Part shown: positions 902 through 44,389 of the stretch, one piece after another
Numbering within the stretch: position 1 is the first letter of the stretch
How the letters are laid out: every line of letters begins with the position of its first letter
NCBI GenBank assembly: GCA_964565645.1
Contig: CAZMFQ010000009.1
Coordinates: 47,391-111,390, forward strand
Direction of reading: 5' to 3'
Source of the DNA: an uncultured Eubacteriales bacterium
GTDB lineage: Bacteria; Actinomycetota; Coriobacteriia; Anaerosomatales; JAHIQC01
DNA length: 64,000 nt
The notes under the pieces: model-generated
The model's database searches: none
What the model was told of the DNA's origin: nothing
What the model saw: only the letters and a program-made list of their open reading frames with translations
Made by a program: the position numbers and the translations under genes

Positions 902-2505
902 TGGGGACCCCCCTTCCCGTTGGTAAGAGAGCCCAAAGTCATATAGACCTCGTTGATCTGCTCGACGAACCGTTCGCCCTCGAACGGCGAGATGTCGACG
1001 ATCCGCAGACGCGCATCATCGAGATGGCGTGAACGCAGCACGGTGCGCAGGAGGTTGATGCGGCGGTCCATGTCCAGGTTGCCGATCAGGTTGTGGCAAT
1101 GGCCCTCGCGGCAACGGAACACCGTAACGCCGTCGAAGCCCGCCTTGAACGCCTCGAGGACGTAGAGCGTGTCGAGACGACCGCCGCATGGGATGCGCAG
1201 CGGCAGGAAGGATGCCGGGTAGGTCTCGCCCCCCTGCTCGACGTACTCGGAGGCGCTGTCTGCGGCCGGATAGCCGCAGCCGGCGCACAGGAAGCCCAGC
1301 ACGCGCTCACCCGGCACCTCGGCCTCGGCAAGCGCGCGGATGGTCTCGATCAGGTAATCATGCGGAGCGCTGATGATGTCGCGGGCGCCCACCGGGCACG
1401 AGACCACGCACTTGCCGCATGCGCGACAGCGCCGCACGTCGACATGCGACAGGCCGTCGGCGCCTAGGCTGCACGCGCCGAACGCGCAGGTTCGGACGCA
1501 GGACGCGCATCCGCCGCACAGGCTTTCGTCGACATGCGAGACGTCCATGTAGTGCGTGGTGGTCGGCTGGGAGAGCCGAAGCACCAGCGCGATGGCGGCT
1601 GAGTCCGCAGCCGCGACCTTCTCGCGGGTGCGGTCACTGCTGACGCGCACGGGAACCACCATGATCCCGGGGTCGACCGTCTCCGACGGGTGTGTGTCGG
1701 GGTCGATCGAGCGGGCGTGCCCCTCTTCGTCGATGTCGACCTTGAAGTGGCCGCGCAGTTCCTCGATCCACTGGGTGACATCGGGGCGGGCGAGCAGGAT
1801 GCCGCCGACCCGGTAGTGGGCGGTGCCGGCGTCCGAGCTCAGGACCACGTCGTAGTCGCCGAGCCAACCGGAGCCGTCGGAGATGCGTGCACCGTCGACG
1901 AACTCGGCGTTGGGATGACCGGCCACGTATGCCGCGGTGGCCTTGAGGCTCGAGGGCTGCAGCGCGTGCGCCTTGCCCTGGCCGCGATCGGCGAGCACCA
2001 CCGAGAATCCGAGCTGAAGAAGCCTCTGGGCGGCCACGACCGCCTCGGTCGTCACACCGAGGATCAGCACCGAGTGCCGAGGCTCGGTCACGATGCCCTC
2101 GGCGTCGCGGGAGAGTGCCACTCTTCGGCAGGCATCTTCTATGACCGCCTTGGCTTTCGCGGTCGCGCCGAGCGGATCGGCGCCGTGGACGACCGCCACC
2201 TGCTCGTAGATGTTGGCGGCGATGACGCGGTTCGGGTTGACGCCCGCGGCGACGATCTTCTCGAGGAGGTGCCGACCCGAGAGTGACTTGGTGTAGCGCT
2301 CCACGGAGTGACCGGCGAGCACGACGCCGTCGAGCTCGGCATCGACAACGTCACGACACATGCGTTCCTGGGTCGACGGATCGAAGAGATCGTCGAAGAC
2401 CCGAACGACCGCGGCCGCCTTGCCCGCGTCCGCGAGCGCCGCGTCCAGGTCGATCGCGTCTTCGACCTTACCTCCGCAACGGGAGACGTACAGGCCTAGT
2501 GGCAC
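898..2505 (-). CDS. HdrA-like polyferredoxin fused to an MvhD-type domain
   Basis: 535 aa, GTG start 6 nt after GGGGTGAGG. Ferredoxin motifs CGGCASCVRTC and CRACGKCVVSCP, followed by a C-terminal MvhD-like region (FLCAGCGYPAAD, IPCGGRLD, FRCREGHCH). The Rossmann-like stretch reads ILGVTTEA rather than GxGxxG. Confidence 0.65.
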   Translation of the reverse strand: MPLGLYVSRCGGKVEDAIDLDAALADAGKAAAVVRVFDDLFDPSTQERMCRDVVDAELDGVVLAGHSVERYTKSLSGRHLLEKIVAAGVNPNRVIAANIYEQVAVVHGADPLGATAKAKAVIEDACRRVALSRDAEGIVTEPRHSVLILGVTTEAVVAAQRLLQLGFSVVLADRGQGKAHALQPSSLKATAAYVAGHPNAEFVDGARISDGSGWLGDYDVVLSSDAGTAHYRVGGILLARPDVTQWIEELRGHFKVDIDEEGHARSIDPDTHPSETVDPGIMVVPVRVSSDRTREKVAAADSAAIALVLRLSQPTTTHYMDVSHVDESLCGGCASCVRTCAFGACSLGADGLSHVDVRRCRACGKCVVSCPVGARDIISAPHDYLIETIRALAEAEVPGERVLGFLCAGCGYPAADSASEYVEQGGETYPASFLPLRIPCGGRLDTLYVLEAFKAGFDGVTVFRCREGHCHNLIGNLDMDRRINLLRTVLRSRHLDDARLRIVDISPFEGERFVEQINEVYMTLGSLTNGKGGPQ

Positions 2506-2688: not shown

Positions 2689-3762
2689 TCAGCCCCTGTC
2701 ACGGCCTCCGGCAGCCAGTCTCTCGATCTCCTCGGCGATGTCGTTGACCCCGAGGACCACGTCCACCGCGCCCAGATCCGCCGCCGCCTTGGGCATGCCG
2801 TACACGGTCGACGTGTCCTCGTCCTGGGCGACGGTGGCCGCACCGGCGTCGTGCATCCGCTTGAGGCCCTCGGCGCCGTCAGCGCCCATGCCGGTGAGGA
2901 TGACCCCCACGGCGCTACGCCCGAAGCTGTTCGCGGTCGAGATGAACAGCGTGTCGGCCGAGGGGATGTAAAGCTGCCCGTGCTGGGGCTCCGAGAAGCG
3001 CATGGTGTAGCCGTCCATCTCGAGGTTCGAGCCCGTTGGGGCGAGGTAGACGTAGCCCGGCTCCGCGAGCGCCCCGTCCTTGGCCTCGCGAACGGTGAGC
3101 TGACAGCCCGTGTCGAGCCACGCCACGAGCCCGGGTACGAAGCCCTCGGCGATGTGCTGTGCGATGACGATCGGGACCGGGAACTCCTTGGGCAGGCGGC
3201 CGAGCACGTTGAGCAGCGCGCTCGGACCTCCCGTCGATGACCCGATGGCGACGAGCGAGCGCGTGCCGGGCCTCACGATGGGCATGGGCGCCGGCGTCAG
3301 GGGCTCCGCGACGGGCCGCTTGCGGCCCTTGATGTGCGTGATGACACGGACCCGCGACAGGACCTTGACCTTGCGGATGACCTCTTTGCCGATCCGCTCG
3401 AGGTCCGCCCAGTCCCTCGGTTCGGGCTTCTTGATGACCTCGAGCGCTCCCATCTGAAGCGCGTCGAAGGCCCTGCCCATCCCTTCGCCGTACACCGAGG
3501 AGGAGACCACGAGGATAGGCGTGGGGTGGTACGCCATGATCTGCTCGGTGGCCACGAGCCCGTCCATCTTGGGCATGTGGATGTCCATGGTAACCAGATC
3601 CGGCCGCAGCTGAGCGACAGCGTCGACGGCTTCTTTGCCGTCACGCGCCATCCCCACGACCTCGATCGACGAGTCGGTCGCCAGGATCTGCGCGAGCATC
3701 TCCCGTGCGACCAGGGAGTCGTCGACTATGAGCACACGAATGCGGCCCCGTTGCGAGTGCAC
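2689..3762 (-). CDS. cheB: Protein-glutamate methylesterase CheB (receiver + methylesterase)
   Basis: 357 aa. Receiver (RVLIVDDS, DIHMPKMDG) followed by an esterase domain (GSSTGGPSAL, LTGMGADG). Last gene of the che operon. Confidence 0.9.
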   Translation of the reverse strand: MHSQRGRIRVLIVDDSLVAREMLAQILATDSSIEVVGMARDGKEAVDAVAQLRPDLVTMDIHMPKMDGLVATEQIMAYHPTPILVVSSSVYGEGMGRAFDALQMGALEVIKKPEPRDWADLERIGKEVIRKVKVLSRVRVITHIKGRKRPVAEPLTPAPMPIVRPGTRSLVAIGSSTGGPSALLNVLGRLPKEFPVPIVIAQHIAEGFVPGLVAWLDTGCQLTVREAKDGALAEPGYVYLAPTGSNLEMDGYTMRFSEPQHGQLYIPSADTLFISTANSFGRSAVGVILTGMGADGAEGLKRMHDAGAATVAQDEDTSTVYGMPKAAADLGAVDVVLGVNDIAEEIERLAAGGRDRG

Positions 3763-3776: not shown

Positions 3777-6107
3777 TCAGCGGATCAGACGCTCGACGGT
3801 GTCGAGCAGTGTGTCCTGGTTGAAGACGGACTTGGTGATGTACGCGTCGGCGCCCGCGTCGATACCCTCGGCCTTCTCTTCGTCACGCTCGAGAGACGTG
3901 ACGATGATGACCGGGATCTCGCGAAGGGCCGGGTCGGCCTTGATGGCGCGCGTGAGCTCGAACCCGGTCATGTTCGGCATCTGGACGTCGGAGACGACCG
4001 CATCCACGTCCAGACCTTCCTTGAGCTTCGCATAGCCCATGGCGCCGTCCATCGCGACCTCGACATCGTAGCCGGCGGCCTCGAAGATCGAGCGCTCGAG
4101 CTCGCGGGTCGTGAACGAGTCCTCGCAGATGAGGATCTTGCGCGGGCCCGTACGCTCCTTCTCGACCACCTGTCCGCCGGTCTTCTGTCCAGCGCGGTGA
4201 CGGGCGTTGGCCATGAGGTCGGGCACGTTGAGGATCGGCACGACCTCTCCGGCACCGAGGATGGTCACCCCGGCGACGTTGTCGACCTTGAGCAGGTGCG
4301 TGCCGAGGGGCTTGATGACGATCTGCTGCTCGCCCACGAGCGCGTCGACCATGAAGCCCATGCGGTGGCCCGAGAAGCCTATGGTCGCGATGGGGATCTT
4401 GAGCCCCTCGTGCCCGGTGTGCGGGACACCGAGGATGTCGCCGAGCTGGATGAGCGGGACGGTGCGGCGCTGACGGCGGATGACCTCGCGGCCCTCCACC
4501 TTGATGATCTCGCTCGGATCGATGCGCAGCGTCTCCTCGATCGAGGCCGTCGGCATCGCGAAGACCTGGTCCCCGACCCGCAGCATGAGCGCGCGGATGA
4601 TCGCGAGCGTCAGCGGGATGGTCAGACGGAACGTCGTGCCCTCACCCATGACGCTGTGCACATCGAGCGAGCCTTTGAGCTTCTCGACGATGAACTCGCG
4701 CACGACATCCATGCCCACGCCCCGGCCGGAGATCTCGGTGATGATCGCGCTCGTTGAGAAGCCCTTCTCGAAGATGAGGTAGATGGCTTCCCGGTCCGAC
4801 ATCGCCTTGGCCTCGGACTCCGAGATGTAGCCCTTGCGGATCGCCGCGCTCTTGACCCGCTCCGGGTCGATGCCCGCACCGTCGTCCGAAACCTCGATGA
4901 CGATGTGGTCACCCTCCTGGCGCGCGGCCATACGGATGGTGCCCTTCGCCGGCTTTCCGGCCTTCACGCGCTCATCGGTCGACTCGATCCCATGGTCCAC
5001 GGCGTTGCGCATGATGTGGACGAGGGGGTCGTTTATCTCCTCGAGCACCTTCTTGTCCAGTTCGGTGTCGCCGCCCTCCATGAAGAGGTCGACGTCCTTC
5101 TTGAACGAACGGGCGAGGTCGCGCACCGCGCGGGGAAACGCCTGGAAGACGGTTGAGACGGGCAGCATGCGCATCCGCATGCCCTGCTCTTGCAGGTCGT
5201 TTATGACCACGGACGTCCGTGATACGTCGTCCCCGTACTGCTTGAGCAGGGTCGTCTCGCCACGCCGCCGGTCGAGCAGTAGGCCGTCCAGGGTGCTGAT
5301 CTCTTCCATGATCGCGGACATCGCAGCGTCATCATCGATCTGGATGGTATTGAGAAGCGACTTGAGGCGCACCCACGTCTGCCATGCCTCGGTCATCTCG
5401 CCGACGCCGGCCCGCAGTTCGAGCAAGCGCTGCTCGTCCTTGATCTGGCCGATGACGACCTCGCTGATGAGGTTCAGAAGCGAGTCGACCTGGCTCGTTC
5501 GGATGCGGATGGTCGTCTGGACCTTGGACTTGAGACCCTCGTCCGCGCCCGGCTTCGCGTTCGCGGCGGCCGCTCGTGACGAGTTGGAGTGCGCGACCTG
5601 GTCCTCGGCAAGCTCCTCTTGGTCCTCGCGCTCGAGCTCCTCGTGCGTGTCGGCCGGCTCCTCGGCAGGTGGATCGGCCGACTCCGGCTCCGAGGCGTCG
5701 GTCCCGGTCTTGGGGGCGCCGCCCTCGGCAACGGCCGTCAGCTTGAGCTGCAGGGCCGGCAGGTCGAGGGTGCCGTCGGTGTTGACGCCGCCGTTGTCGG
5801 CAAGGAAGACGATAGCGTCGAGCGCCTCGAAGAAGCTGTCACTCATCTGGGGCGTGTAGGCCATCTCGCCGTCGCGGATCTTGACCATGATGTCTTCGAG
5901 CCTGTGGGCCACATCGGAGATGTCGATGAGACCCACCATGCGCGAGGAGCCCTTGATGGTATGGGCGTCGCGCATCATCTGATCGATGAGCTCCCGGTTG
6001 CCCGGGTCGATCTCGAGTTGGATGACGCCCTCGTTGAGACGCTGCAGGAGATCCTGCGCCTCTTCCTGGAACTTCCCTATGAACGCGCTGCGGTCGAACT
6101 CGACCAT
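3777..6107 (-). CDS. cheA: Chemotaxis histidine kinase CheA with C-terminal receiver (FrzE-like hybrid)
   Basis: 776 aa. HPt (HTIKGSS), acidic linker, HATPase (DDGAGID, GRGVGMDVV), CheW-like domain, C-terminal REC (KILICEDS, DVQMPNMTG). Confidence 0.9.
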   Translation of the reverse strand: MVEFDRSAFIGKFQEEAQDLLQRLNEGVIQLEIDPGNRELIDQMMRDAHTIKGSSRMVGLIDISDVAHRLEDIMVKIRDGEMAYTPQMSDSFFEALDAIVFLADNGGVNTDGTLDLPALQLKLTAVAEGGAPKTGTDASEPESADPPAEEPADTHEELEREDQEELAEDQVAHSNSSRAAAANAKPGADEGLKSKVQTTIRIRTSQVDSLLNLISEVVIGQIKDEQRLLELRAGVGEMTEAWQTWVRLKSLLNTIQIDDDAAMSAIMEEISTLDGLLLDRRRGETTLLKQYGDDVSRTSVVINDLQEQGMRMRMLPVSTVFQAFPRAVRDLARSFKKDVDLFMEGGDTELDKKVLEEINDPLVHIMRNAVDHGIESTDERVKAGKPAKGTIRMAARQEGDHIVIEVSDDGAGIDPERVKSAAIRKGYISESEAKAMSDREAIYLIFEKGFSTSAIITEISGRGVGMDVVREFIVEKLKGSLDVHSVMGEGTTFRLTIPLTLAIIRALMLRVGDQVFAMPTASIEETLRIDPSEIIKVEGREVIRRQRRTVPLIQLGDILGVPHTGHEGLKIPIATIGFSGHRMGFMVDALVGEQQIVIKPLGTHLLKVDNVAGVTILGAGEVVPILNVPDLMANARHRAGQKTGGQVVEKERTGPRKILICEDSFTTRELERSIFEAAGYDVEVAMDGAMGYAKLKEGLDVDAVVSDVQMPNMTGFELTRAIKADPALREIPVIIVTSLERDEEKAEGIDAGADAYITKSVFNQDTLLDTVERLIR

Positions 6108-6134: not shown

Positions 6135-7358
6135 CTACTCGACGATCCGGAACGCGGACCCGACCTGAGCCGACTCCTTCGCGATGTTGGAGAGCTGCTC
6201 TGCACTGCCAGCGACCTGACGCCCGCCCGCCGCCGTCTGCTGGGCTACGGCGGCGACCTCGCGCATGGCCTTGACGACCTGGTCCGTCGCGCTCTTCTGC
6301 TGCTGTGTCGCGGCGGAGATCTCCTTGGCCGCCACGGTCGTCTGCTCGATCATCTCGAGGATCTGGTCGAGGGACTCGCCGGTGACGTGGGCGAGATCGA
6401 CGCCGCCCTGGACCTGCTTGAGCTCCTGCTCGGTGGCGATGACGAGTTCGTTCGCGGCGCTCTGGATCTCGGTCATGATCGTACCGATCTCGCCGGTCGA
6501 GTCCACGACGGACTCGGCGAGCTTGCGGATCTCGACCGCGACGACGGAGAAGCCCTTGCCGGCCTCTCCCGCCCGCGCCGCCTCGATGGCCGCGTTGAGC
6601 GCGAGGATCTTGGTCTGGTCCGCGATCGAGTTGATGATCTCGAGGACCTGGCCGATCTGCTGGCTGCGCTCGCCGAGCGAGAGGATCTTGTTCGCGGATG
6701 CCTGGGACCTGGTCTTGATGTCCTCCATGGCCGACAGGGTGTTCATGACGGCCTGCTGGCCGGACTCCGCACTCCCGAGCGAGGCCTCGGCCATGTTCAC
6801 CACCTGGTTCGCGTTGTCGGCGATCTGGCGGTACGTGGCGGCAAGCTCCTCCATCGTCGCGGTGGTCTCGCTGATGGACGCGGCCTGCTCGGCGGCGCCC
6901 GAGGCCTGCTGTTCTGTCGCCGAGAGGATCTCGCTCGAGGACTGCGCGAGCCTGCGAGAGGATTCCTGCGTCTGTCGGATGAGGTAGACGATCAGATCGA
7001 GCATCTGGTTGTAGGAGCGTGAAAGCGTGCCGAACTCGTCGGGCGTGTCGACATCGACCTTGTGGCCGATCTCGCCCTGGCACGCCGCCTTGACGCTCTC
7101 TACGACGAGATCGAGTGGTGCGATGAACCGTTTGCCCACGTACAGGAAGATCACGAGCCAGCCGATACCGAGGACCGTCGTCCCGGCGAGCAGCAGTATG
7201 ATGTCGCCCTTGAGTTCAGGCGCTCCCGCCAGCTCATCGCCGAAGGAGAGCCACGCCACCCACCACTGGAGCCCGATGAACACCATCATGATGAGGGCGT
7301 TCACAAGCGAGTACTTGTAGAGGAACTTGCTTCTGACCGCGTTGATGATCCTGTTCAT
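6135..7358 (-). CDS. Methyl-accepting chemotaxis protein, two TM helices + HAMP, no periplasmic sensor domain
   Basis: 407 aa. Two hydrophobic helices separated by about 14 residues, a HAMP region, and the canonical signalling hairpin [30 protein letters not shown]. Confidence 0.9.
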
Positions 7359-7379: not shown

Positions 7380-7898
7380 CTACTTGGCTCCCGCGCCGAT
7401 CGGTTCGAGCACCCTATCCTTGTTGACGAGGCCGATGAGTCGACCGTCGATGTAGATGGAACCGGCGATGAACTCCGCCTGCGATTTGTCGATGGTGGTG
7501 AGCGGAGGCTCGATGCCCTCGCGGGGGACGTCGACGATGTCGCCGATCTCGTCGACCACGATGGCGGAGGTGCTGTTCGCGCCATGCACCACGATCGCGG
7601 GGGCCTGTCCGGCGTCGGTCGTGAGCGCCCCGAGGCGCATCATCCGGGCCACGTCGGTAACCGAGATGATCTCGCCTCGGATGTTGACCACGCCGAGGAT
7701 GAAATCCGGCACGCACGGGATCGGCGTGATGAGGTACTCCTGGTATATCTCGCGGACGTCGTCCACGTTCACCGCGTACCACTCGTCCCCGAGCCTGAAG
7801 AGCAACACGGAGATGAGGTCCGCGGCGATCTCCTCGGCGGACTCCTGAGCGAGCGATTCGGCACGCTTGCGCAAGACCTCGTCGGCCTGCTCGGCCAT
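7380..7898 (-). CDS. cheW: Chemotaxis coupling protein CheW
   Basis: CheW-like domain (LLFRLGDEWYAVNVDDVREI, VNIRGEIISV). Start placed at ATG 7898, preceded by AGGAGA. The longer ORF to 7982 would overlap the upstream gene by 53 nt. Confidence 0.85.
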   Translation of the reverse strand: MAEQADEVLRKRAESLAQESAEEIAADLISVLLFRLGDEWYAVNVDDVREIYQEYLITPIPCVPDFILGVVNIRGEIISVTDVARMMRLGALTTDAGQAPAIVVHGANSTSAIVVDEIGDIVDVPREGIEPPLTTIDKSQAEFIAGSIYIDGRLIGLVNKDRVLEPIGAGAK

Positions 7899-7929
7899 GG
7901 ATCTCCTGCCGTTCGGCTCCGTCACGCGA

Positions 7930-8475
7930 TCACCACCCCTCGCCGTCGGTGAGCCCGAGTGGAGCCACGAGCTTCTCGACACTGAGCATGAACACGAGGT
8001 CCGTGTCGAGATGGCAGACGCCGATCATTCGGTCGGCGAGGGCGTGCAGCTTGGGAGGGGCCGAGACGCACCCCTCGGGGACGTCGATGACGTCCTCGAC
8101 ATCGTCGACCACCAGGGCCACGAAGCCCTGGCCGACGCGGCAGATGATCATGGGGGTGTCGAGACGGTACTCCTCGGCGGGCAGCGAGAGCAGGGCGCGC
8201 ATATCGATCGCCGGGATGACGCTCCCGCGCAGGTTGACCATACCGATGACGGCGTGCGAGCCGCCGTGGGCCTCGGAGAGCGCGACGATCTGCTGGATCT
8301 CCTGGACGCTGTGGATCGGAAGGGCGTAGCGCTGACCGCCGAGGTGGAACGCGACCATCTGGCTGATGACCGCGACTTCGGGCTCAGGCTCCGCCGGCGC
8401 GACGACCTCGACGGCAGGCGTCTCCTGCTCCACGGGGGCCGGCTCGGGGGCGGGTGTCTTCTTGCGAGGGGTCAT
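7930..8475 (-). CDS. cheW: CheW-like coupling protein with Pro/Glu-rich N-terminal extension
   Basis: Start at ATG 8475 (MTPRKKTPAPEP...). CheW domain (FHLGGQRYALPIHSVQEI, VNLRGSVIPAIDM). The upstream part of the 282-aa ORF is Arg/Pro/Ser-rich and looks non-coding. Confidence 0.8.
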   Translation of the reverse strand: MTPRKKTPAPEPAPVEQETPAVEVVAPAEPEPEVAVISQMVAFHLGGQRYALPIHSVQEIQQIVALSEAHGGSHAVIGMVNLRGSVIPAIDMRALLSLPAEEYRLDTPMIICRVGQGFVALVVDDVEDVIDVPEGCVSAPPKLHALADRMIGVCHLDTDLVFMLSVEKLVAPLGLTDGEGW

Positions 8476-8491: not shown

Positions 8492-10363
8492 TCATTCCGC
8501 GAACCGCAGCACGCGGTTGAGTTCCTCGGGACTGACAAGCCCCTCTTTGACCTTGGCGAGCCCGGAAGCGACCATCGGCCGCATCCCGGCGGCGCGCACG
8601 ACCGCCGCGATCTCCTCGGCGGACGCGCCATGAGCGATCGGCGCCCGGACCTGCTCGGTGAAGGGCAGGACCTCGAAGATGCCGGTGGCGCCCTGGAAGC
8701 CCGTGTTCGCACAGGCGGGACAACCCGAGCCGCGCTTGGACGGCGTGCCGGGCTCCGCACCGGGGATCCGGTCCGCAAGCGGGCTCTTCTGCGGCGCCGA
8801 GCAGTGCGGGCAGTTCATGCGCACGAGGCGCTGGCCCACACCGAGCGTGAGCGCCGAAGCGAGCGAGACCGGCTCGACGCCGACGTCGAGCATGCGGCGC
8901 ACGCCCGAGACGATGTCGCCGCCGGAGAAGGTGGCGATGACGAGCTTGCCGACGCCGGCCGCCTCGACCGCGAGATGGACGTCCTCGACGGACTGCATCG
9001 CATCGATGGCGATGACGTCGGTGTCCTGGCGGATGCCCGCCGCGAAGTAGCCCTCGGCGCCGACCGGTGAGCCGGGGCTCACGAGCACCTGCGCGACGGC
9101 GGGGATCTCGTAGTCGATGGAGCGCTCGACCGAGTACACGGTCTTGCCGTATTGCGCGGCGTGCTGCAGCAGTGCGTAATAGGTGGACGAGCGGCCGCCC
9201 GCGACCGGCGCGCACACGAGCAGGATGCCCTTGCCGCGCTCGACCATCGCGTGCAGCGCGCGTACCTCGGCCTCGTTCATACCGAGCTCGGCAAGACCTC
9301 GCGGCGCTGCCTTGTCCGCAGCGACCGAGATGACCACGCGCTGTCCGGCGATCGTCGGTACGGCCGAGACCGTCACGACGAGGTCGCGGTCCCCTATGTG
9401 CGACTTGACGCGACCGAGCGCCGGACGCGAGGACTGCACCGAGGACAGGCGCGCGAAGTTCTTGAAGCCGTCCACGAGTGCGCCCTGGAGCGAGAGCGGG
9501 GCACTCGCGATCTTCTCGAGGCGGCCGTGCACCCGATAGACCAGGAAGAAGTCGTCCTTGTAGGGCAACAGCTGGATGCGGTTCGCGCCGCGCACGACGG
9601 CATGCTCGAGGATGTCCGAGACGAGCACGGCGACCTTGCGCGCGTCCGCGACGGCGAGCACGTCGAGGTCGATGGCCGCCGAACCCTCGGAGACCGCGGT
9701 CTCGACGACCTCCTCGATCCCGCGCACCTCCTCGACGGGCGCATCGGCGGGGACCTCGACGGCAGGCGCGTCGGCGACCACAGGCATGTCGTCGACCACC
9801 GGAGCCTCGAAGAAGTCCGCGACGTCGACCTCCGGCTCCTCGGCAAGGATCGATTCGGGCGTGGGCTCGAGCAGGCGTTCGGCGAGTTCGGCGGGCGTCT
9901 CGACCGCCGCGACGGGCTCCTCGGCGACATCGCCGTAGTACTGCACGATCGCGCCGCGCACCGATGCGGCGTCGGAGAGCACCGCTTCGATCTCGAGTCC
10001 GAGTTCGGCGGCGAGCGAGTCGAGCTTGAAGACGTCCATGGCATCCGCGATCGCGATCGTGAGCATGCCCTCGATCTCAAAGAGCGGGAGCACGTTGCGC
10101 GCACGCGCGACCCCGACGGGAACGAGCAGCAGCGCGTCGTCGTCGGGAGCGTAGCTCGAGAGGTCAACGCGCGGGATGCCGAGCTCGTCCTCCATGACCG
10201 ACTCGACGTCGGCCGGCGTCACGAGCCCCCGCTGCGCAAGGACGTCGCCGGGCGTGGTGCCCGCCGACTCGGCAGCGTCGGTGACCGTGCTGATCTGCTC
10301 GATGGTGAGCAGCCCGGCGTTCGCGAGCGCATCCAGAACGCGTGAAGTGATCGAATCAGGCAT
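8492..10363 (-). CDS. PilB/GspE-family secretion-ATPase homologue with degenerate catalytic motifs (predicted pseudo-ATPase)
   Basis: 623 aa. T2SSE_N-type N-terminal domain, acidic P/E/V linker, C-terminal ATPase fold with the tetracysteine CPHC...CPAC retained. Walker A reads APVAGGRSST, Asp box VERSIDY, Walker B DTDVIAIDAMQS, His box VGKLVIATFSGG. Confidence 0.75.
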   Translation of the reverse strand: MPDSITSRVLDALANAGLLTIEQISTVTDAAESAGTTPGDVLAQRGLVTPADVESVMEDELGIPRVDLSSYAPDDDALLLVPVGVARARNVLPLFEIEGMLTIAIADAMDVFKLDSLAAELGLEIEAVLSDAASVRGAIVQYYGDVAEEPVAAVETPAELAERLLEPTPESILAEEPEVDVADFFEAPVVDDMPVVADAPAVEVPADAPVEEVRGIEEVVETAVSEGSAAIDLDVLAVADARKVAVLVSDILEHAVVRGANRIQLLPYKDDFFLVYRVHGRLEKIASAPLSLQGALVDGFKNFARLSSVQSSRPALGRVKSHIGDRDLVVTVSAVPTIAGQRVVISVAADKAAPRGLAELGMNEAEVRALHAMVERGKGILLVCAPVAGGRSSTYYALLQHAAQYGKTVYSVERSIDYEIPAVAQVLVSPGSPVGAEGYFAAGIRQDTDVIAIDAMQSVEDVHLAVEAAGVGKLVIATFSGGDIVSGVRRMLDVGVEPVSLASALTLGVGQRLVRMNCPHCSAPQKSPLADRIPGAEPGTPSKRGSGCPACANTGFQGATGIFEVLPFTEQVRAPIAHGASAEEIAAVVRAAGMRPMVASGLAKVKEGLVSPEELNRVLRFAE

Positions 10364-10372: not shown

Positions 10373-10753
10373 CTACCCCTGCGCCTTGGAGAGCTCCTCG
10401 GCCACCGCAGCCAGGAGGGTTTCGGGCTCGATAGGCTTCGTGAGGTATTGGTTCGCGCCGGTCCGAATGCCGGTCGCCATCGCCTGCTCCTCGGTCTTGG
10501 CCGTGAGCATGATGATCGGGATGGCCTTGTACTTCTGGTCGAACTTGAGCAGCCGGCAGACCCGGTACCCGTCCAACTTGGGAAGCATGACGTCGAGAAG
10601 GATCAGATCGGGCATCTCCGCACGAGCGGTCTCGAGCGCTTCCGCCCCGTCTGACGCCGTGATGACCTCATAGCCGCCCGACAGGAGGATCGCCTTGATC
10701 ATCTCCAGGATGGTCGGACTGTCATCGACCGCCAGAATACGAGCACTCGCCAT
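10373..10753 (-). CDS. cheY: Single-domain response regulator CheY
   Basis: 126 aa. ILAVDDSPT, LILLDVMLPKLDG, IIMLTAK receiver signature. Confidence 0.85.
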   Translation of the reverse strand: MASARILAVDDSPTILEMIKAILLSGGYEVITASDGAEALETARAEMPDLILLDVMLPKLDGYRVCRLLKFDQKYKAIPIIMLTAKTEEQAMATGIRTGANQYLTKPIEPETLLAAVAEELSKAQG

Positions 10754-10823: not shown

Positions 10824-12356
10824 TCAACTCGCGCCCTTACGACACTCTACCAGACTACGCTCGACGGTCTTGGCCAACAGATCGGGTTTGAAACCGCCGA
10901 GGAACCACGTCCACGCGCCCTCCGGATCCTCATACAGGGTCCGCAGGGTGTTCTCATATTCTCTGCACGCGTCGCCCGTCGCCCCCTGAGCGCGGTAGAG
11001 GTTCGCGAGGTTGAGATGCGCGAGCGCGAAGCCCTGATCTATGTAGATGGTGCGCTTGAACTCCGAGAGCGCCTCCATCTGCTCGCCGCGGCCCAGGTGG
11101 ATGATCCCGAGGACGTAGCGGGCCGCCGCCATGAGCGGATCGATGCTGAGCGCCTTGTGGCACTCCGCGAACGCCTCGTCCATCTGGCCCTGGTCGGCAT
11201 GCACGTACGCAGCGAGCAGGTATGCCTCGGCGTTGGTCGGCTCGATACTCCAGACTTCGTCGATGGCTTCGAGGACCGCGTCGTTGCGGCCGTCCTGCGA
11301 GGCGAGACGCGCGGCTTCGAGCAACTGGGCCACACGGGCGTCGCCCTCGGCCGCGGGCTTCGCAGGCTCGGCCGGAGCAAGCTCGGGCCTCGTTCGCCGG
11401 GGCTGCTCCACGCCGGCGCGCGACTCGCGGACGAGACGTGCGGTGCTCGGACGCTCGGACGGAGCACGCTTGGGCTCGGATCCGGGGAAGTTCAGTCCCC
11501 GGCGCAGCCGAGGCTTGCGGTACAGGAACACGCCGCCCACCTCGACCGGCTCGAACTTGTCCGAGATGCTCGTGAGCGTCTCGGAGTGGCCGATGAAGAG
11601 GTAGCCGCCCGGGTTCAGGGACTCGTAGAAGTTGTCGACGACCCGGCGCGTGGATTCCAACCGGAAGTAGATGGTGACGTTGCGGCAGAAGATGACGTCC
11701 CAGTTCCCCATGAGCGCCAGCGGGTAGGGCTCCTTGATCAGGTTGTGGTACTGGAACGTGATCAGCTTGCGCACGCGATCGGTGACGCGGTGGCCGTGCG
11801 CGGTCGGCTCGAAGAAGCGACTCGAGACCGAACTCGGGACCGAGAGCAGCGCGCGTGCGGGGTACACGCCCTGCTTGGCGCGTAGCAGGGCGTTGGTCGA
11901 CACGTCGGTGCCCATGACCTCGAGGTTGTAGCCGAGGCCCTCGAGGCCGGAGTCCATGAGCGTCATGGCGATGGTGTACGGCTCCTCCCCGGTGGAGCAG
12001 CCTGCCGACCACACCCGGAACTGCCGGTTGGTGGGGAGTTTGCCCTCGATGATCTCCGGGATGATGAACTTGCGCAGCGCCTCGAACTGCTGAGGGAAGC
12101 GGAAGAAGCTCGTCTCGTTGATCGTGACGAGGTTCATGAGTTCCTTGAACTCGTCCTCGTCGGCCACGAGCATCTCGTAGTACTCGCCGAGCGAGTCGAA
12201 GCAGAAGCGCGTCGCGCGCGTGATGAGCGAGATGCGGAGCGAGTCCGCCTTCTGCTCCTCGAGGTAGATGCCTGAGTGCTTGTGGATGTAGTCGCGGAAC
12301 CGCCCGAACTCCTCGGGGGTCAGGTCCTTTGACAGGCTCTCGCCGTTGCCGGCCAT
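10824..12356 (-). CDS. cheR: Chemotaxis methyltransferase CheR with C-terminal TPR repeats (FrzF-like)
   Basis: 510 aa. CheR SAM-binding region (VWSAGCSTGEEPYTIAM, IFCRNVTIYF), a Pro/Arg-rich linker, and TPR-like repeats at the C-terminus. Confidence 0.9.
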   Translation of the reverse strand: MAGNGESLSKDLTPEEFGRFRDYIHKHSGIYLEEQKADSLRISLITRATRFCFDSLGEYYEMLVADEDEFKELMNLVTINETSFFRFPQQFEALRKFIIPEIIEGKLPTNRQFRVWSAGCSTGEEPYTIAMTLMDSGLEGLGYNLEVMGTDVSTNALLRAKQGVYPARALLSVPSSVSSRFFEPTAHGHRVTDRVRKLITFQYHNLIKEPYPLALMGNWDVIFCRNVTIYFRLESTRRVVDNFYESLNPGGYLFIGHSETLTSISDKFEPVEVGGVFLYRKPRLRRGLNFPGSEPKRAPSERPSTARLVRESRAGVEQPRRTRPELAPAEPAKPAAEGDARVAQLLEAARLASQDGRNDAVLEAIDEVWSIEPTNAEAYLLAAYVHADQGQMDEAFAECHKALSIDPLMAAARYVLGIIHLGRGEQMEALSEFKRTIYIDQGFALAHLNLANLYRAQGATGDACREYENTLRTLYEDPEGAWTWFLGGFKPDLLAKTVERSLVECRKGAS

Positions 12357-12360
12357 GGCG

Positions 12361-13128
12361 TTACTCCGCGACCGGGACTTCGTCAGGCGCCCCCAGGCGT
12401 TCGATCAGCCCCGCCGAGTACATCCCATAGAGGATCTTTGCGGTATCGAAATCGTTGTATCCCGTGACCTCGACGAGCTCGCGCACGGTACGTCCCCCGT
12501 GCAGGAAACACAGGAGCATCCACTCCTTGGGCTTCAGATGGATCTCCATGGACTTGTCACCGGGCGCCGAAGCCATGATGAACCGGGTGTCCATGCTCGG
12601 GATCTTGAGCCGGATACGGTTCCAAAGCTCGAGACGACGCGCGGACTCCATGATGATGTTCTCGACCGAGACGGAGATGCCGATGTCCTCGTCCTCGCAG
12701 GTCTCGCCCGACTCGAACCGAAGCTCACCCTCCTCCCAGCGGAAGAGGTCGAACAGGGTGTCGTTGATCTGGTCCTGGATGAAACTCTCGAGCACCTTGG
12801 AGTCCAGATAGCCCTCATCGACGAGGATCTGCCCGAGGCGGCGGTTGGCCTTCTCCTTCTTCTGGATCTTCTGGAGGCCGAGGGCCTGCCGCAGCTGTTT
12901 CTCCGAGATGACGCCCGTCTTGACGAGACGCCGGCCCAAAGACTCGCGGTTGTAGTTGCTCGATGCGAAGAACACGCGCCCCTTCTTGAAGCAGACGCGC
13001 CCCTCGGACTCGCCGCGCTCCATATGCAGGGTGCCGCTCTTCGAGCCTGAGGCGAGAAGGCGGAACATGTCCTCGAGCGAGAAGTCTCTGAGGTTTCCCT
13101 CGAGCGCCACGGAGATCCTCCCAGGCAT
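12361..13128 (-). CDS. DUF4388-domain protein carrying tandem MshEN/T2SSE_N-type motifs
   Basis: DUF4388 signature (LEGNLRDFSLEDMFRLLASGSKSGTLHMERGESEGRVCFKKGRVFFA), then two 24-residue RLGxxLVxxG..L...L..Q-type motifs. Start at ATG 13128 is preferred; the ORF extends to 13221. First gene of the che operon. Confidence 0.7.
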   Translation of the reverse strand: MPGRISVALEGNLRDFSLEDMFRLLASGSKSGTLHMERGESEGRVCFKKGRVFFASSNYNRESLGRRLVKTGVISEKQLRQALGLQKIQKKEKANRRLGQILVDEGYLDSKVLESFIQDQINDTLFDLFRWEEGELRFESGETCEDEDIGISVSVENIIMESARRLELWNRIRLKIPSMDTRFIMASAPGDKSMEIHLKPKEWMLLCFLHGGRTVRELVEVTGYNDFDTAKILYGMYSAGLIERLGAPDEVPVAE

Positions 13129-13283
13129 CCTATGCCGGCCGAGGATTCGGCAGGCGGAGAAGTCGTTGAAACGGACCGCCGAGGAGTCTACCCGGAGTCC
13201 GTCCCAATCGTAGCACGCCACCTGCCGAGGTCAAAGGACGCAGACAGCGTGTCGACCCCCTCGGACCTCGCCTTACGGCACAA

Positions 13284-13335: not shown

Positions 13336-14880
<1,545 letters not shown>

Positions 14881-19650: not shown

Positions 19651-19698
19651 GGCGCCTCCTGCTGGCGGGTTTGGCACGGTTTCGCTGCCTGCGTAAGA

Positions 19699-19713
19699 AC
19701 AAGCATCGTGCCA
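19699..19713 (-). promoter_or_regulatory. Candidate sigma-54 (-24/-12) promoter of nifB-mod operon
   Basis: The minus strand reads TGGCACGATGCTTGT (TGGCAC-N5-TTGT; consensus TGGCAC-N5-TTGC), 49 nt upstream of the nifB ATG. Confidence 0.45.
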
Positions 19714-19775
19714 TTCCGATACCCCCTTCTACCTGCTGTTTTTCACCCCGCCGAGGAATGGCGCACGACAGTTTC

Positions 19776-19809
19776 GTGCCCCGTGCGACATTTGTGTCGC
19801 ACGGGGCAC
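19776..19809. promoter_or_regulatory. Perfect palindrome (15-bp arms, 4-nt spacer) containing the 19-mer shared with the nifH upstream region
   Basis: GTGCCCCGTGCGACA-TTTG-TGTCGCACGGGGCAC. Its centre is about 80.5 bp from the GG of the nifB -24 element. It also lies 10 nt after the fdxB stop. Confidence 0.5.
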
Positions 19810-19818
19810 CGGGGGGCG

Positions 19819-20094: not shown

Positions 20095-20095
20095 G

Positions 20096-20521: not shown

Positions 20522-20523
20522 GT

Positions 20524-20841: not shown

Positions 20842-20930
20842 CGTGTCGCTTCCTTCCTTCTCGCCTGATCGTCGTATGGGTGGTCGCCCGCGCGAGCGGG
20901 CCGGTGCGGCCGGAGCCGCGGGTATGCCGT

Positions 20931-24031: not shown

Positions 24032-24040
24032 GGGTGGTCC

Positions 24041-25552: not shown

Positions 25553-25562
25553 CGCGGGCCTC

Positions 25563-27035: not shown

Positions 27036-28025
<990 letters not shown>

Positions 28026-44386: not shown

Positions 44387-44389
44387 CGA

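What the first reader, a model, noticed from the sequence alone, without database searches (positions are those of the whole stretch)
8492..10363. PilB/GspE-family protein with every catalytic motif degenerate, sitting as a core gene of a Frz-like che operon
Seen in sequence: the 623-aa product has a T2SSE_N-type N-terminal domain, an acidic Pro/Glu/Val linker and a C-terminal secretion-ATPase fold that keeps the tetracysteine knuckle (CPHC...CPAC). Where I align the catalytic motifs, all are broken. Walker A reads APVAGGRSST (canonical GPTGSGKT; Lys lost). The Asp box reads VERSIDY (canonical IEDPVEY). Walker B reads DTDVIAIDAMQS (canonical DPDIIMVGEIRD; Glu lost). The His box reads VGKLVIATFSGG (canonical TGHLV.STLHTN; both His lost). 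The gene is packed between cheY (9-nt gap) and cheW (16-nt gap) in a nine-gene same-strand cluster with a FrzE-like CheA-REC, FrzF-like CheR-TPR, two CheW, CheB and an MCP. Established knowledge: Frz and Pil-Chp-type pathways regulate type IV pilus machines powered by PilB/PilT ATPases. Inference: this paralogue cannot hydrolyse ATP. It may act as a scaffold, decoy or nucleotide sensor linking chemosensory output to a pilus or secretion apparatus encoded elsewhere. I am not aware of a characterised dead-PilB component of a che operon.
Basis: partly seen in the sequence, partly recalled or inferred. Interest (0 to 1): 0.72.

Follow-up and report, generated by a model that had tools for sequence, protein, structure and literature searches.

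The report
Dead PilB paralogue inside chemosensory operon
A pilus-motor ATPase look-alike that has lost every catalytic residue is a conserved core gene of a chemotaxis-like signalling operon in anaerobic Actinomycetota, so it probably works as a non-enzymatic adaptor between signalling proteins and a pilus machine, a component not described before.

Summary
The ORF at 8492-10363 lies on the minus strand. It encodes a 623-aa protein with MshEN/GspE_N and T2SSE domains and a PilB/PilF/GspE fold. The Cys4 knuckle is intact.

The gene is not decaying. dN/dS is about 0.06, and the replacement residues are themselves invariant.

Fifty-six species-level Coriobacteriia/Anaerosomatales-type genomes carry the same nine-gene order: PATAN, CheR-TPR, CheY, this gene, CheW, CheW, MCP, CheA-REC, CheB. 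Low-GC relatives with only 26-37% identity keep the arrangement. The degenerate proteins form one clade apart from canonical PilB (NJ bootstrap 100/100).

Best reading, by inference: a catalytically inert PilB-derived adaptor on the output side of a Frz-like pathway. It would be controlled by the adjacent CheY and the operon's PATAN protein, and would act on a pilus platform encoded elsewhere. An input role, like M. xanthus PilB signalling to Dif, is a serious rival.

No pilus genes lie nearby. My literature searches found no description of such a component. I rate it a new variant of a known kind, interest about 0.68.

The parts
8492..10363 (-). Pseudo-PilB ('PilBx'), 623 aa: N1D/MshEN + disordered acidic linker + N2D + degenerate ATPase CTD with Cys4 knuckle
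   Evidence: ORF. Pfam MshEN + T2SSE. PilB equivalog model scores 270 bits against a 675.65 cutoff. AF2 model pLDDT 79. Top Foldseek hits are PilF, PilB and GspE. dN/dS about 0.06.
9929..10363 (-). N1D (residues 1-145), MshEN/GspE_N-type docking domain. Residues 61-145 are the most conserved part across the deep family (signature VDL[ST]SY.P[DE] ... PLFEIEG.LT)
   Evidence: Pfam. pLDDT about 90. Domain-wise identity 55% across deep clades. Alignment A2. The c-di-GMP motif model NF053729 scores only 21.6 bits against a cutoff of 38.
9674..9928 (-). Acidic Pro/Glu/Val/Ala-rich linker (residues 146-230), variable in length and sequence
   Evidence: pLDDT below 50 for residues 146-155 and 166-215. 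Mean identity 33% within the clade and 14% across clades.
9299..9673 (-). N2D (residues 231-355). R318 is retained, but two canonical arginines are replaced (T331, S346)
   Evidence: Alignment to PilB structures. Column counts.
9188..9211 (-). Walker A remnant APVAGGRS (residues 385-392): Lys to Arg
   Evidence: The Lys position across 121 family sequences is R102/A15/G2/S2. P-loop residues 388-390 have pLDDT below 50.
9107..9130 (-). Asp-box remnant VERSIDYE (residues 412-419)
8990..9025 (-). Walker B remnant DTDVIAIDAMQS (residues 447-458): the catalytic Glu is lost, and the canonical Gly is an invariant Asp
   Evidence: The Glu position in the family is S45/A31/G23/P14/T5/E2.
8915..8953 (-). 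His-box remnant VGKLVIATFSGGD (residues 471-483): both His lost, and K473 is nearly invariant
8711..8812 (-). Tetracysteine (Zn) knuckle CPHC...CPAC (residues 518-551), retained
   Evidence: C518, C521, C548 and C551 are invariant in A1 and A2.
10373..10753 (-). CheY (126 aa, single REC). Its stop lies 9 nt upstream of the PilBx ATG. It is the most conserved protein of the operon
   Evidence: Pfam Response_reg. Gap. 81-97% identity across 56 genomes and 66-73% in the low-GC clades.
12361..13221 (-). Stand-alone PATAN/DUF4388 (PatA_N) protein, first gene of the cluster. The true start is probably the ATG near 13128
   Evidence: Pfam DUF4388, 115 bits. Present in the same position in all loci with enough flank.
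10824..12356 (-). CheR methyltransferase with C-terminal TPR repeats (FrzF-like)
   Evidence: Pfam CheR_N, CheR and TPR families.
7930..8475 (-). CheW 1. Its ATG lies 16 nt downstream of the PilBx stop
   Evidence: Pfam CheW. Sequence.
7380..7982 (-). CheW 2. The start codon is uncertain, and the longest ORF overlaps CheW 1
   Evidence: Pfam CheW.
6135..7358 (-). MCP (407 aa): HAMP + signalling domain. The N-terminus reads as two hydrophobic segments with a very short loop, so there is no periplasmic sensor domain (read from sequence)
   Evidence: Pfam HAMP 74-121 and MCPsignal 188-371. Translation.
3777..6107 (-). CheA with C-terminal receiver (Hpt, dimerisation, HATPase, CheW-like, REC; FrzE-like)
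   Evidence: Pfam.
2689..3762 (-). CheB methylesterase (REC + CheB_methylest), last gene of the cluster
   Evidence: Pfam.

Best explanation
SHOWN. The gene encodes a paralogue of the type IV pilus extension ATPase PilB. It keeps the three-domain fold, the Zn knuckle and the N-terminal docking domain. It has lost every residue that the PilB/GspE family needs for ATP hydrolysis. It is under strong purifying selection. It is a fixed, ancestral component of a Frz-like chemosensory operon (PATAN, CheR-TPR, CheY, PilBx, CheW, CheW, MCP, CheA-REC, CheB) in anaerobic Actinomycetota (Coriobacteriia/Anaerosomatales-OPB41 type) and in related low-GC lineages of undetermined taxonomy.

INFERRED. It acts as a non-enzymatic output adaptor of this pathway. 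Phosphorylated CheY comes from the gene translationally abutting it. The stand-alone PATAN protein has a domain that binds the N-terminal half of PilB1 in cyanobacteria. Together these control whether PilBx docks, through its conserved N1D and ring-forming body, onto partners that normally bind the real assembly ATPase (a PilC/PilM-type platform, or the PATAN protein itself). As a motor that cannot turn over, PilBx would act as a placeholder, competitor or decoy. In that way chemosensory signalling would gate pilus assembly by a machine encoded elsewhere in the genome.

The deep clades still keep the Walker A GK[ST] and the Walker B Asp-Glu but already lack the Asp and His boxes. This suggests stepwise loss: first catalysis and subunit coupling, then, in the high-GC clade of this window, probably nucleotide binding as well.
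For: Fold and family:
- Pfam MshEN + T2SSE.
- AF2 model with pLDDT 79.
- The best Foldseek hits are PilF, PilB and GspE, E about 1e-32.

Loss of catalysis:
- Motif-by-motif alignment to PilB structures.
- The catalytic Glu and Walker A Lys positions are unconstrained in 121 family sequences. The new residues D454, K473, T331 and S392 are invariant or nearly so.
- The NCBIfam PilB equivalog scores 270 bits against a 675.65 cutoff.

Not a pseudogene:
- dN/dS is 0.06 against the closest orthologues.
- The former ATPase core is the most conserved region within the clade, at 83% identity.

Core operon gene:
- The gene order is identical in 56 species-level genomes and in a 2.5-Mb chromosome.
- The same order holds around homologues of only 26-37% identity in GC 33-40% genomes.
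- The degenerate proteins form one clade (NJ bootstrap 100/100).

Link to CheY:
- A 9-nt gap with a Shine-Dalgarno-like AGGGG inside the end of cheY.
- The CheY-PilBx adjacency is kept in every clade.
- Natural PilB-REC fusions exist elsewhere (P0367).

Link to PATAN:
- A PATAN gene is in every operon.
- PATAN binds the PilB1 N-terminal domain and the PilC N-terminal domain, and is the output domain of cyanobacterial Tax systems (bioRxiv 10.1101/2021.06.11.447907; PMC11181946).
- N1D residues 61-145 are the best-conserved part of PilBx across deep clades.

Link to polarity and pilus biology:
- A small Ras/Arf-like GTPase sits between PATAN and CheR in the low-GC operons.
- Cultured OPB41 relatives are non-flagellated, non-motile rods that make pili-like appendages (PMC9686372).
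Against: - No pilus, secretion or second PilB-like gene occurs in the 64-kb window or within 10 kb of the gene in any fetched locus.
- I could not check whether these genomes encode a type IV pilus at all.
- The direction of signal flow is not established. The gene is also tightly followed by cheW-cheW-mcp.
- The MCP has no sensor domain.
- In M. xanthus an ATPase-dead PilB signals INTO a chemosensory pathway (PMC5544727). This favours the input rival.
- PilBx and the CheWs are the fastest-evolving proteins of the operon (26-37% identity where CheY keeps 66-73%). That is not what one expects of a docking surface shared with a conserved pilus platform.
- Within the clade the dead ATPase core is the most conserved part. 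This hints at a retained ligand or partner site there, rather than at N1D.
- No interaction, ATPase or nucleotide-binding data exist.
Confidence: 0.4

Rival explanations
1. Input module. PilBx is the sensor or relay that feeds the pathway. Locked in a nucleotide-free-like or ligand-bound conformation, it reports the state of a pilus machine, or of a small-molecule ligand (ATP/ADP or c-di-GMP), to the sensor-less MCP and the CheW/CheA complex. This is analogous to M. xanthus PilB acting upstream of the Dif chemosensory proteins.
For: - In M. xanthus an ATPase-deficient PilB supports signalling upstream of Dif, and the nucleotide-free form is proposed to be the signalling state (PMC5544727).
- The MCP here has only two hydrophobic segments, a short loop and a HAMP domain, with no ligand-binding domain.
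- PilBx is followed at 16 nt by cheW-cheW-mcp.
- The former nucleotide pocket region is the most conserved part within the clade, at 83%. S392, E413, D447, D449 and R318 stay invariant.
- The deep clades keep Walker A GK[ST] and Walker B DE.
- Some family members still match the MshE c-di-GMP motif model, best E 2.9e-12.
Against: - The Walker A Lys position varies (R/A/G/S) inside the clade, so a conserved triphosphate-binding role is doubtful there.
- The c-di-GMP motif of this protein is below threshold (21.6 against 38 bits). It lacks both motif-ending Gln residues and one Arg (read from the alignment).
- The tightest and most universal adjacency is with cheY, the pathway's output protein.
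Confidence: 0.27
2. Array scaffold. PilBx forms a hexameric ring that is a structural element of the chemosensory array. It would sit with the two CheWs and the CheA-REC under a hexagonal receptor lattice, with no connection to any pilus.
For: - The PilB fold, and by family knowledge its hexamer-forming N2D/CTD architecture, is retained.
- The gene sits next to two CheW genes in all clades.
- No pilus genes lie nearby.
- PilBx and the CheWs evolve at similar fast rates.
Against: - There is no precedent for this.
- It does not explain the conserved PATAN gene, the small GTPase, or the retained N1D docking domain.
- Hexamerisation was not tested, and several inter-subunit residues (arginines, His box) are replaced.
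Confidence: 0.1
3. PilBx is still an active NTPase that uses non-canonical residues (for example Arg in the P-loop) and powers a dedicated filament or secretion device.
For: - Arg replaces Lys in 102 of 121 sequences, and Ser392 and Thr394 are kept.
- The pocket region is strongly conserved.
Against: - The catalytic Glu position is free to be S/A/G/P/T, and the Lys position is A/G/S in 19 sequences.
- The Asp box, both His residues and two arginines are lost together.
- In P. aeruginosa PilB/PilT/PilU, single substitutions in these motifs are reported to abolish function (Chiang et al. 2008, cited in PMC11656802; recalled, not re-read).
- There is no platform (PilC) gene nearby.
Confidence: 0.04
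4. A decaying pseudogene, or a fortuitous insertion of a pilB fragment into a che operon.
For: Only the loss of the catalytic motifs.
Against: - The reading frame is intact in 56 or more species.
- dN/dS is about 0.06.
- The replacement residues are invariant.
- The position is kept in lineages as divergent as 26% identity.
Confidence: 0.01

Closest known systems
PilB, the type IVa pilus extension ATPase (Geobacter metallireducens/sulfurreducens PilB, PDB 5tsh/5tsg/6olj/5zfr; Thermus PilF 5oiu)
   Same: - Same domain order: MshEN/GspE_N N1D, N2D, then a RecA-like CTD with a Cys4 knuckle.
- 28-31% identity over about 385 aligned residues.
- Foldseek E about 1e-32 and phmmer E 2e-71.
   Different: - The Walker A Lys, Asp box, Walker B Glu, both His-box His and two N2D Arg are all replaced.
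- It fails the PilB equivalog cutoff (270 against 675.65 bits).
- It is encoded inside a che operon rather than next to pilT/pilC/pilM.
- It forms a separate clade from canonical PilB.
M. xanthus PilB as a signalling protein upstream of the Dif chemosensory pathway (Black et al. 2017, PMC5544727)
   Same: A PilB protein, in a hydrolysis-deficient or nucleotide-free state, communicates with a chemosensory pathway whose MCP lacks a sensory domain.
   Different: - There it is the single active motor moonlighting, encoded in the pil cluster. Dif also lacks CheR and CheB (the latter from memory).
- Here it is a dedicated, permanently dead paralogue encoded inside a che operon that has CheR and CheB.
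Cyanobacterial Tax/Pix systems: PATAN-REC (PatA-type) regulators binding PilB1 and PilC (bioRxiv 10.1101/2021.06.11.447907; PMC11181946)
   Same: A chemotaxis-like operon that carries a PATAN-domain protein plus a single-domain CheY. PATAN is the output domain and contacts the N-terminal half of a PilB protein.
   Different: - Here PATAN is a stand-alone protein without a REC domain.
- The PilB-like partner is encoded in the operon and is catalytically dead.
- The host is a monoderm anaerobic actinobacterium.
- The interaction was not tested here.
Frz pathway of Myxococcus xanthus (FrzCD, FrzA/B, FrzE, FrzF, FrzG, FrzZ/X)
   Same: CheA-REC hybrid kinase, CheR with TPR repeats, two CheW proteins, CheB and a single-domain CheY. 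The low-GC relatives add a small Ras-like GTPase, reminiscent of MglA.
   Different: - The MCP is membrane-anchored with a HAMP domain rather than cytoplasmic.
- There is no FrzZ-type dual-REC protein.
- Frz has no PilB-like or PATAN gene in its operon (from memory).
MshE/MshEN c-di-GMP receptor domain of T2SS/T4P ATPases (PDB 5htl)
   Same: N-terminal MshEN-type domain (Pfam PF05157; phmmer hit to 5htl, E 3e-7).
   Different: - The tandem c-di-GMP-binding motif is degraded in this protein: RLG becomes RVL in motif 1 and TPG in motif 2, and both terminal Gln are lost.
- NF053729 scores 21.6 bits against a cutoff of 38.
- Some deep relatives score better.

Membership tests
PilB / GspE secretion-ATPase family (T2SSE, PF00437) | N2D + RecA-like CTD fold recognised by the family profile | tested here: met
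   PF00437 at 198 bits against a 24.9 cutoff, covering residues 240-617. Foldseek top hits are PilF, PilB and GspE with probability 1.00.
PilB / GspE secretion-ATPase family (T2SSE, PF00437) | Walker A GxxGxGK[ST] | tested here: not met
   APVAGGRS. The Lys is Arg here and R/A/G/S across the family.
PilB / GspE secretion-ATPase family (T2SSE, PF00437) | Asp box (ExDPxE) and Walker B with catalytic Glu (DPDxxxxGE) | tested here: not met
   VERSIDY and DTDVIAIDA. The Glu position is S/A/G/P/T in the family.
PilB / GspE secretion-ATPase family (T2SSE, PF00437) | His box (TGHxxxxTxH) | tested here: not met
   VGKLVIATFS. Both His are replaced, and Lys473 is nearly invariant.
PilB / GspE secretion-ATPase family (T2SSE, PF00437) | Tetracysteine Zn-binding motif of the PilB/GspE subgroup | tested here: met
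   C518, C521, C548 and C551 are invariant. Metal binding itself was not tested.
PilB / GspE secretion-ATPase family (T2SSE, PF00437) | ATP hydrolysis and hexamer formation | not testable with these tools
   Needs purified protein.
Type IV-A pilus assembly ATPase PilB (NCBIfam TIGR02538 equivalog) | Score at or above the curated equivalog cutoff | tested here: not met
   270.1 bits against a cutoff of 675.65. GspE TIGR02533 scores 258.7 against 630.25.
Type IV-A pilus assembly ATPase PilB (NCBIfam TIGR02538 equivalog) | Genomic association with pilT/pilC/pilM or other pilus genes | tested here: not met
   There is no second PilB-like gene in the window or within 10 kb in the fetched loci. Pfam scans of the window and the neighbour lists of loci show no pilus genes. 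Whole genomes were not searchable.
Frz-like (non-flagellar) chemosensory operon | CheA-REC hybrid kinase, CheR-TPR, two CheW, CheB, MCP and CheY in one cluster | tested here: met
   Pfam on all nine products. The order is conserved in 56 genomes.
Frz-like (non-flagellar) chemosensory operon | Cytoplasmic FrzCD-type receptor and FrzZ dual-REC output | tested here: not met
   The MCP has an N-terminal hydrophobic pair plus a HAMP domain. There is no dual-REC gene in the cluster.
Frz-like (non-flagellar) chemosensory operon | Phylogenetic class of CheA/CheW (ACF or Tfp class in the Wuichet-Zhulin scheme) | not tested
   No class-specific models were available in these tools.
MshEN c-di-GMP-binding domain | MshEN domain profile | tested here: met
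   PF05157 at 54 bits, residues 61-146.
MshEN c-di-GMP-binding domain | Tandem c-di-GMP motif (NF053729 cutoff of 38 bits) | tested here: not met
   21.6 bits for this protein. 9 of 12 deep family members match at E<=0.01, best E 2.9e-12. Binding may therefore persist in some relatives.
PATAN-PilB regulatory pairing (cyanobacterial PatA-type systems) | PATAN-domain protein encoded in a che-like operon together with a single-domain CheY | tested here: met
   DUF4388/PatA_N at 115 bits. Present in all operons.
PATAN-PilB regulatory pairing (cyanobacterial PatA-type systems) | PATAN fused to a REC domain | tested here: not met
   The PATAN protein has no Response_reg hit.
PATAN-PilB regulatory pairing (cyanobacterial PatA-type systems) | Physical binding of PATAN to the PilB N-terminal domain | not testable with these tools
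   Only single-chain structure prediction was available.

The most novel reading that the evidence does not exclude
A motor-ATPase pseudoenzyme is a previously unrecognised class of core chemosensory-pathway component. A permanently 'stalled' PilB ring would be read or positioned by CheY~P and a stand-alone PATAN protein. It would transmit chemosensory output to a pilus platform by occupying it, or relay pilus state back to the array. This would be a new way to couple two-component signalling to a filament machine in monoderm anaerobes, with stepwise loss first of catalysis and then of nucleotide binding visible across the family.
Probability: 0.35. Interest if true: 0.8.

Novelty: new variant of a known kind. 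Interest (0 to 1): 0.68.

Why it matters
- Chemosensory pathways that control type IV pili (Pil-Chp, Frz, Tax/Pix, Dif) are known, but how their output reaches the pilus motor is still poorly understood.
- This is a natural, conserved experiment. A whole lineage has dedicated a catalytically dead copy of the motor ATPase to its che operon, alongside the two protein types (CheY and PATAN) that are known or suspected to talk to PilB.
- If PilBx binds them, it gives a stable, non-hydrolysing handle for trapping and solving the CheY/PATAN-PilB complexes that are transient with the real motor.
- It would add secretion-ATPase pseudoenzymes to the list of signalling adaptors.
- Database annotation needs correcting. 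These proteins are currently named 'ATPase, T2SS/T4P/T4SS family', 'PilB', 'GspE' or 'TadA', which wrongly implies an active pilus or secretion motor in these genomes.
- Two cultured relatives exist (Anaerosoma tenue and Parvivirga hydrogeniphila; PMC9686372), so experiments are conceivable.

Tried and rejected
- **Alternative motif registers.** No intact GxxGxGK[ST], GE or His box exists elsewhere in the protein.
- **Pseudogene or insertion.** Rejected by synteny, dN/dS and invariant replacement residues.
- **Pilus genes near the operon.** tblastn with canonical PilB against the window and all fetched loci found only PilBx itself. Pfam scans of other window ORFs gave nif, CBB-cycle, hydrogenase and housekeeping genes.
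- **Conserved sigma-54 activator.** The divergent GAF/sigma-54 activator at 13336-14880 is not found next to the operon in any other locus, so it was dropped as part of the system.
- **PATAN-PilB natural fusions as Rosetta-stone evidence.** The precomputed PF14332 hits on 883-aa Deinococcota PilF-like proteins turned out weak (30-36 bits, with no single stretch passing). I do not rely on them. PilB-REC fusions are solid.
- **Taxonomy of the low-GC clades.** A search with their CheA returned only Actinomycetota/Coriobacteriia names at 47-59% identity. Their own taxonomy stays undetermined.
- **Literature.** Five searches for a degenerate or dead PilB in che clusters found nothing relevant. Papers on OPB41 isolates and strain EMTCatB1 contain no pilus or che gene analysis.
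- **c-di-GMP receptor idea.** The motif model is below cutoff for this protein. It is kept only as part of the input rival.


Full report
**1. What is at the coordinates**

The ORF 8492..10363 is real, but it lies on the minus strand (ATG start, 623 aa). Pfam finds an MshEN/GspE_N domain at residues 61-146 and a T2SSE domain at residues 240-617.

NCBIfam's best models are PilB (TIGR02538, 270 bits) and GspE (TIGR02533, 259 bits). Both are far below their equivalog cutoffs of 675.65 and 630.25 bits.

An AlphaFold2 model built on a 34-sequence family alignment has mean pLDDT 79. It shows:
- a well-folded N1D (residues 1-145);
- a disordered acidic linker, with pLDDT below 50 over residues 146-155 and 166-215;
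- an N2D and a CTD;
- a low-confidence P-loop (residues 388-390).

Foldseek against the PDB returns Thermus PilF, Geobacter PilB and Vibrio GspE/EpsE as best matches, with E about 1e-32.

**2. The motifs**

phmmer alignments to three solved Geobacter PilB sequences (E 2e-71) fix the registers.

| Motif | Canonical PilB | This protein |
|---|---|---|
| Walker A | GPTGSGKT | APVAGGRS |
| Asp box | AEDPVEF | VERSIDY |
| Walker B | DPDIIMIGEIRD | DTDVIAIDAMQS |
| His box | TGHLVLSTLHTND | VGKLVIATFSGGD |

Two N2D arginines are also lost (DYRVS becomes VVTVS; VVLR becomes VVIS), while R318 of the DGR element is kept. The Cys4 knuckle (C518, C521, C548, C551) is intact.

No alternative register with intact motifs appears in any multiple alignment.

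**3. Not decay**

The 120 closest database homologues are all at least 60% identical, and all carry the same degenerate motifs.

Column statistics over 121 sequences show two kinds of position:
- Positions that matter for catalysis have become free. The Walker B Glu position is S45/A31/G23/P14/T5/E2, and the Walker A Lys position is R102/A15/G2/S2.
- Several replacement residues are fixed or nearly so. D454 replaces the canonical Gly, K473 replaces the first His, T331 replaces an Arg, and S392 is also fixed.

dN/dS against the two closest orthologues is about 0.06. dS is near saturation, so this is a rough figure.

Within this clade the former ATPase core (residues 356-515) is the most conserved segment, at 83% mean identity.

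**4. A core gene of the operon**

On the minus strand the cluster reads (Pfam):

| Gene | Coordinates |
|---|---|
| PATAN/DUF4388 | 12361-13221 |
| CheR-TPR | 10824-12356 |
| CheY | 10373-10753 |
| PilBx | 8492-10363 |
| CheW | 7930-8475 |
| CheW | 7380-7982 |
| MCP with HAMP | 6135-7358 |
| CheA-REC | 3777-6107 |
| CheB | 2689-3762 |

The cheY stop lies 9 nt before the PilBx ATG, and an AGGGG sits inside the end of cheY. The PilBx stop lies 16 nt before the cheW ATG.

A scan of one genome per GTDB species returned 58 loci. Two are canonical PilB genes from Desulfurivibrio and Telluria. The other 56 are all Actinomycetota/Coriobacteriia/Anaerosomatales-type MAGs.

tblastn with the window's proteins shows the same nine genes in the same order wherever the contig is long enough. 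Identity to the window's proteins in those loci:

| Protein | Identity range |
|---|---|
| CheY | 81-97% |
| PilBx | 49-87% |
| CheA | 57-74% |
| CheW1 | 40-65% |

A 2.5-Mb chromosome (OW818687.1) shows the same cluster with unrelated flanks.

**5. A deeper family**

An exhaustive HMMER search of 1.84 billion representatives shows a score gap. Family members score at least 377 bits and canonical PilBs score about 300 bits or less.

More distant degenerate relatives (P0132, P0136, P0137, P0138, P0170 and P0271-P0276; 26-39% identity) were examined:
- They share the N1D signature VDL[ST]SY.P[DE].
- They all lack the Asp and His boxes.
- Several still keep GK[ST] in Walker A and Asp-Glu in Walker B.

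Their genomic contexts repeat the operon:

| Locus | GC | Context |
|---|---|---|
| L061 | 36% | PatA_N, a 170-aa protein, CheR-TPR, CheY, PilBx, CheW, CheW, MCP, CheA-REC, CheB |
| L062 | 33% | PatA_N, a small Ras/Arf-like GTPase, CheR-TPR, CheY, PilBx, CheW, CheW |
| L065 | 40% | PATAN, CheR-TPR, CheY, PilBx, a double CheW, MCP, CheA-REC, CheB |

The L061 170-aa protein is homologous to the L062 GTPase.

At this evolutionary distance the components have diverged unequally from the window's proteins:

| Protein | Identity |
|---|---|
| CheY | 66-73% |
| PATAN | 40-59% |
| CheA | 42-54% |
| CheWs | 25-40% |
| PilBx | 26-37% |

A neighbour-joining tree of the N2D+CTD region separates all 22 degenerate proteins from 38 canonical ones in 100 of 100 bootstraps. 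Long-branch effects could inflate this support, but the shared operon independently supports a single origin.

Across these deep clades the best-conserved part of PilBx is N1D residues 61-145, at 55%.

The taxonomy of the low-GC clades could not be established. A search with the L061 CheA returned only Actinomycetota/Coriobacteriia names, at 47-59% identity.

**6. What bears on function**

- **PATAN.** In Synechocystis the PATAN domain of PatA-type regulators is the output domain of chemotaxis-like systems. It binds the N-terminal half of PilB1 (residues 1-366) and the PilC N-terminal domain (bioRxiv 10.1101/2021.06.11.447907; PMC11181946). Here PATAN is a stand-alone protein encoded in every operon.
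- **CheY.** The CheY-PilBx adjacency is universal. Canonical PilB proteins with a C-terminal REC domain exist (P0367: T2SSE 175-558, REC 624-736). A direct REC-PilB functional link therefore has precedent.
- **GTPase.** The small Ras-like GTPase in the low-GC operons recalls MglA-type polarity switches of pilus-driven motility (family knowledge).
- **Physiology.** The cultured OPB41/Anaerosomatales species are non-motile rods with pili-like appendages, and the paper does not mention flagella. In Parvivirga the appendages appear only on ferrihydrite (PMC9686372). The window's GC of 67% is close to the 66.6% reported for Anaerosoma tenue, but identity with that organism was not tested.
- **Precedent for input.** In M. 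xanthus an ATPase-deficient PilB signals upstream of the Dif chemosensory proteins, and the nucleotide-free form is proposed to be the signalling state (PMC5544727).
- **MCP.** The MCP has no sensory domain. This is read from its sequence plus a HAMP domain at residues 74-121.
- **c-di-GMP.** The MshE-type c-di-GMP motif scores 21.6 bits against a cutoff of 38 for this protein. It scores better in some relatives, best E 2.9e-12.

**7. Most likely mechanism**

Shown:
- PilBx is a catalytically inert PilB paralogue.
- It is selected for and monophyletic.
- It is an obligate component of this Frz-like operon.

Inferred, with confidence about 0.4:
- It is the output-side adaptor.
- CheY~P and the PATAN protein regulate its docking.
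- Docking would occur through the conserved N1D and the ring body, onto partners of the true assembly ATPase.
- A motor that cannot turn over would act as placeholder, competitor or decoy, and so gate pilus assembly.

The main rival (about 0.27) reverses the arrow. PilBx would be the input relay to a sensor-less MCP, as with PilB and Dif. Lesser rivals are a pure array-scaffold role (about 0.1), a cryptic non-canonical ATPase (about 0.04) and a pseudogene (about 0.01).

The chief weakness of every pilus-linked model is that no pilus gene lies in the window or within 10 kb in any fetched locus. I also could not search whole genomes.

**8. Comparison with known systems and novelty**

By fold and descent PilBx belongs to the PilB/GspE family. 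It fails that family's defining catalytic features and the PilB and GspE equivalog thresholds, so it should not be filed as PilB.

The operon is Frz-like in composition: CheA-REC, CheR-TPR, two CheW proteins and CheB. It differs in having a membrane-anchored HAMP MCP and no FrzZ-type protein. It resembles cyanobacterial Tax systems in carrying PATAN plus CheY.

Five full-text searches and a recent PilB-regulation review (PMC11656802) gave no description of a degenerate PilB as a che-operon component. The searchable library is incomplete, so prior description cannot be excluded.

Public annotations call these proteins 'ATPase, T2SS/T4P/T4SS family', 'PilB', 'GspE' or 'TadA'.

**9. Verdict**

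Degeneracy and core-operon status are solid. The functional role is inferred only.
- Novelty: a new variant of a known kind.
- Interest: 0.68.

Noticed in passing
window 17-2505 (-); also L004, L022, L047, L049 (downstream of cheB) and L061 221-4332 (upstream of PATAN): An Mvh-type hydrogenase module directly follows cheB on the same strand. It consists of a 535-aa Fe-S protein with a C-terminal FlpD/MvhD domain and a [NiFe] small subunit (Oxidored_q6). The large subunit presumably lies beyond the window start. The same module neighbours the che operon in four Coriobacteriia loci. In the distant low-GC locus L061 it lies on the other side of the operon. This may hint at a link between H2 or redox metabolism and this signalling system.
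   Followed up: partly
L061 5526-6038 and L062 5529-6044: The low-GC versions of the operon carry a small Ras/Arf-like GTPase between PATAN and CheR. L062 has an intact P-loop (GPRGVGKT). The L061 homologue (26% identity) reads GPFDAGRI, so its P-loop is itself degenerate. The high-GC operons, including this window, lack the gene.
   Followed up: partly
L019 and L022 (both from MAG JBBIJX01, BR1S70218_bin_172): One MAG carries two copies of the whole PilBx che operon on different contigs (PilBx 61% identity to the query in both). This is either a true duplication or mixed strains in the bin.
   Followed up: no
P0367, P0371, P0378, P0319, P0363: Canonical PilB proteins (all motifs intact) fused to a C-terminal receiver domain. 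In P0367 the T2SSE domain is 175-558 and the REC domain is 624-736. This is a direct REC-PilB architecture that I have not seen discussed.
   Followed up: partly
P0284-P0310 (883-886 aa, Oceanithermus and other Deinococcota): PilF-like ATPases with three MshEN repeats carry a precomputed PatA_N/DUF4388 hit. On re-scan the hit is weak (30-36 bits, with no single stretch passing), so a PATAN-PilB fusion is not established.
   Followed up: partly
window 18709-27968 (-): A nitrogenase cluster: NifH (27036-27968), two Oxidored_nitro proteins (NifD/NifK-like, 25563-27035 and 24041-25552), an 877-aa NifE-NifN-like fusion (21398-24031), P-II proteins (20096-20841) and a radical-SAM NifB-like gene (18709-19677).
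   Followed up: partly
window 43454-51478: A Calvin-cycle gene set: split transketolase (43454-45235, -), RuBisCO large subunit, a CbbX-like AAA protein (47465-48418) and FBPase (48422-49495). The RuBisCO is 556 aa in the longest ORF, and its catalytic domains begin at residue 97, so it has either an N-terminal extension or a mis-set start (45340-47010, +). Autotrophy genes are unusual for Coriobacteriia.
   Followed up: no
window 58129-63951 (-): A 1940-aa protein with RCC1 repeats, Ig-like domains and three C-terminal CWB2 cell-wall-binding repeats. It is probably a giant surface or S-layer-associated protein.
   Followed up: no
window 51478-56289: A stretch of about 4.8 kb has no long ORF with the high GC3 (at least 0.80) typical of the rest of the window. 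It may be foreign or mobile DNA. No Rfam family reaches gathering score there.
   Followed up: no
window 30402-30754 (-): A tmRNA gene (Rfam RF00023, 158 bits). In L059 the partner gene smpB lies about 5 kb upstream of the che operon.
   Followed up: no
window 13336-14880 (+): A GAF + sigma-54 activator + HTH_8 regulator is transcribed divergently from the PATAN gene. It is not found next to the operon in any of the other loci, so it is probably not part of the system.
   Followed up: yes
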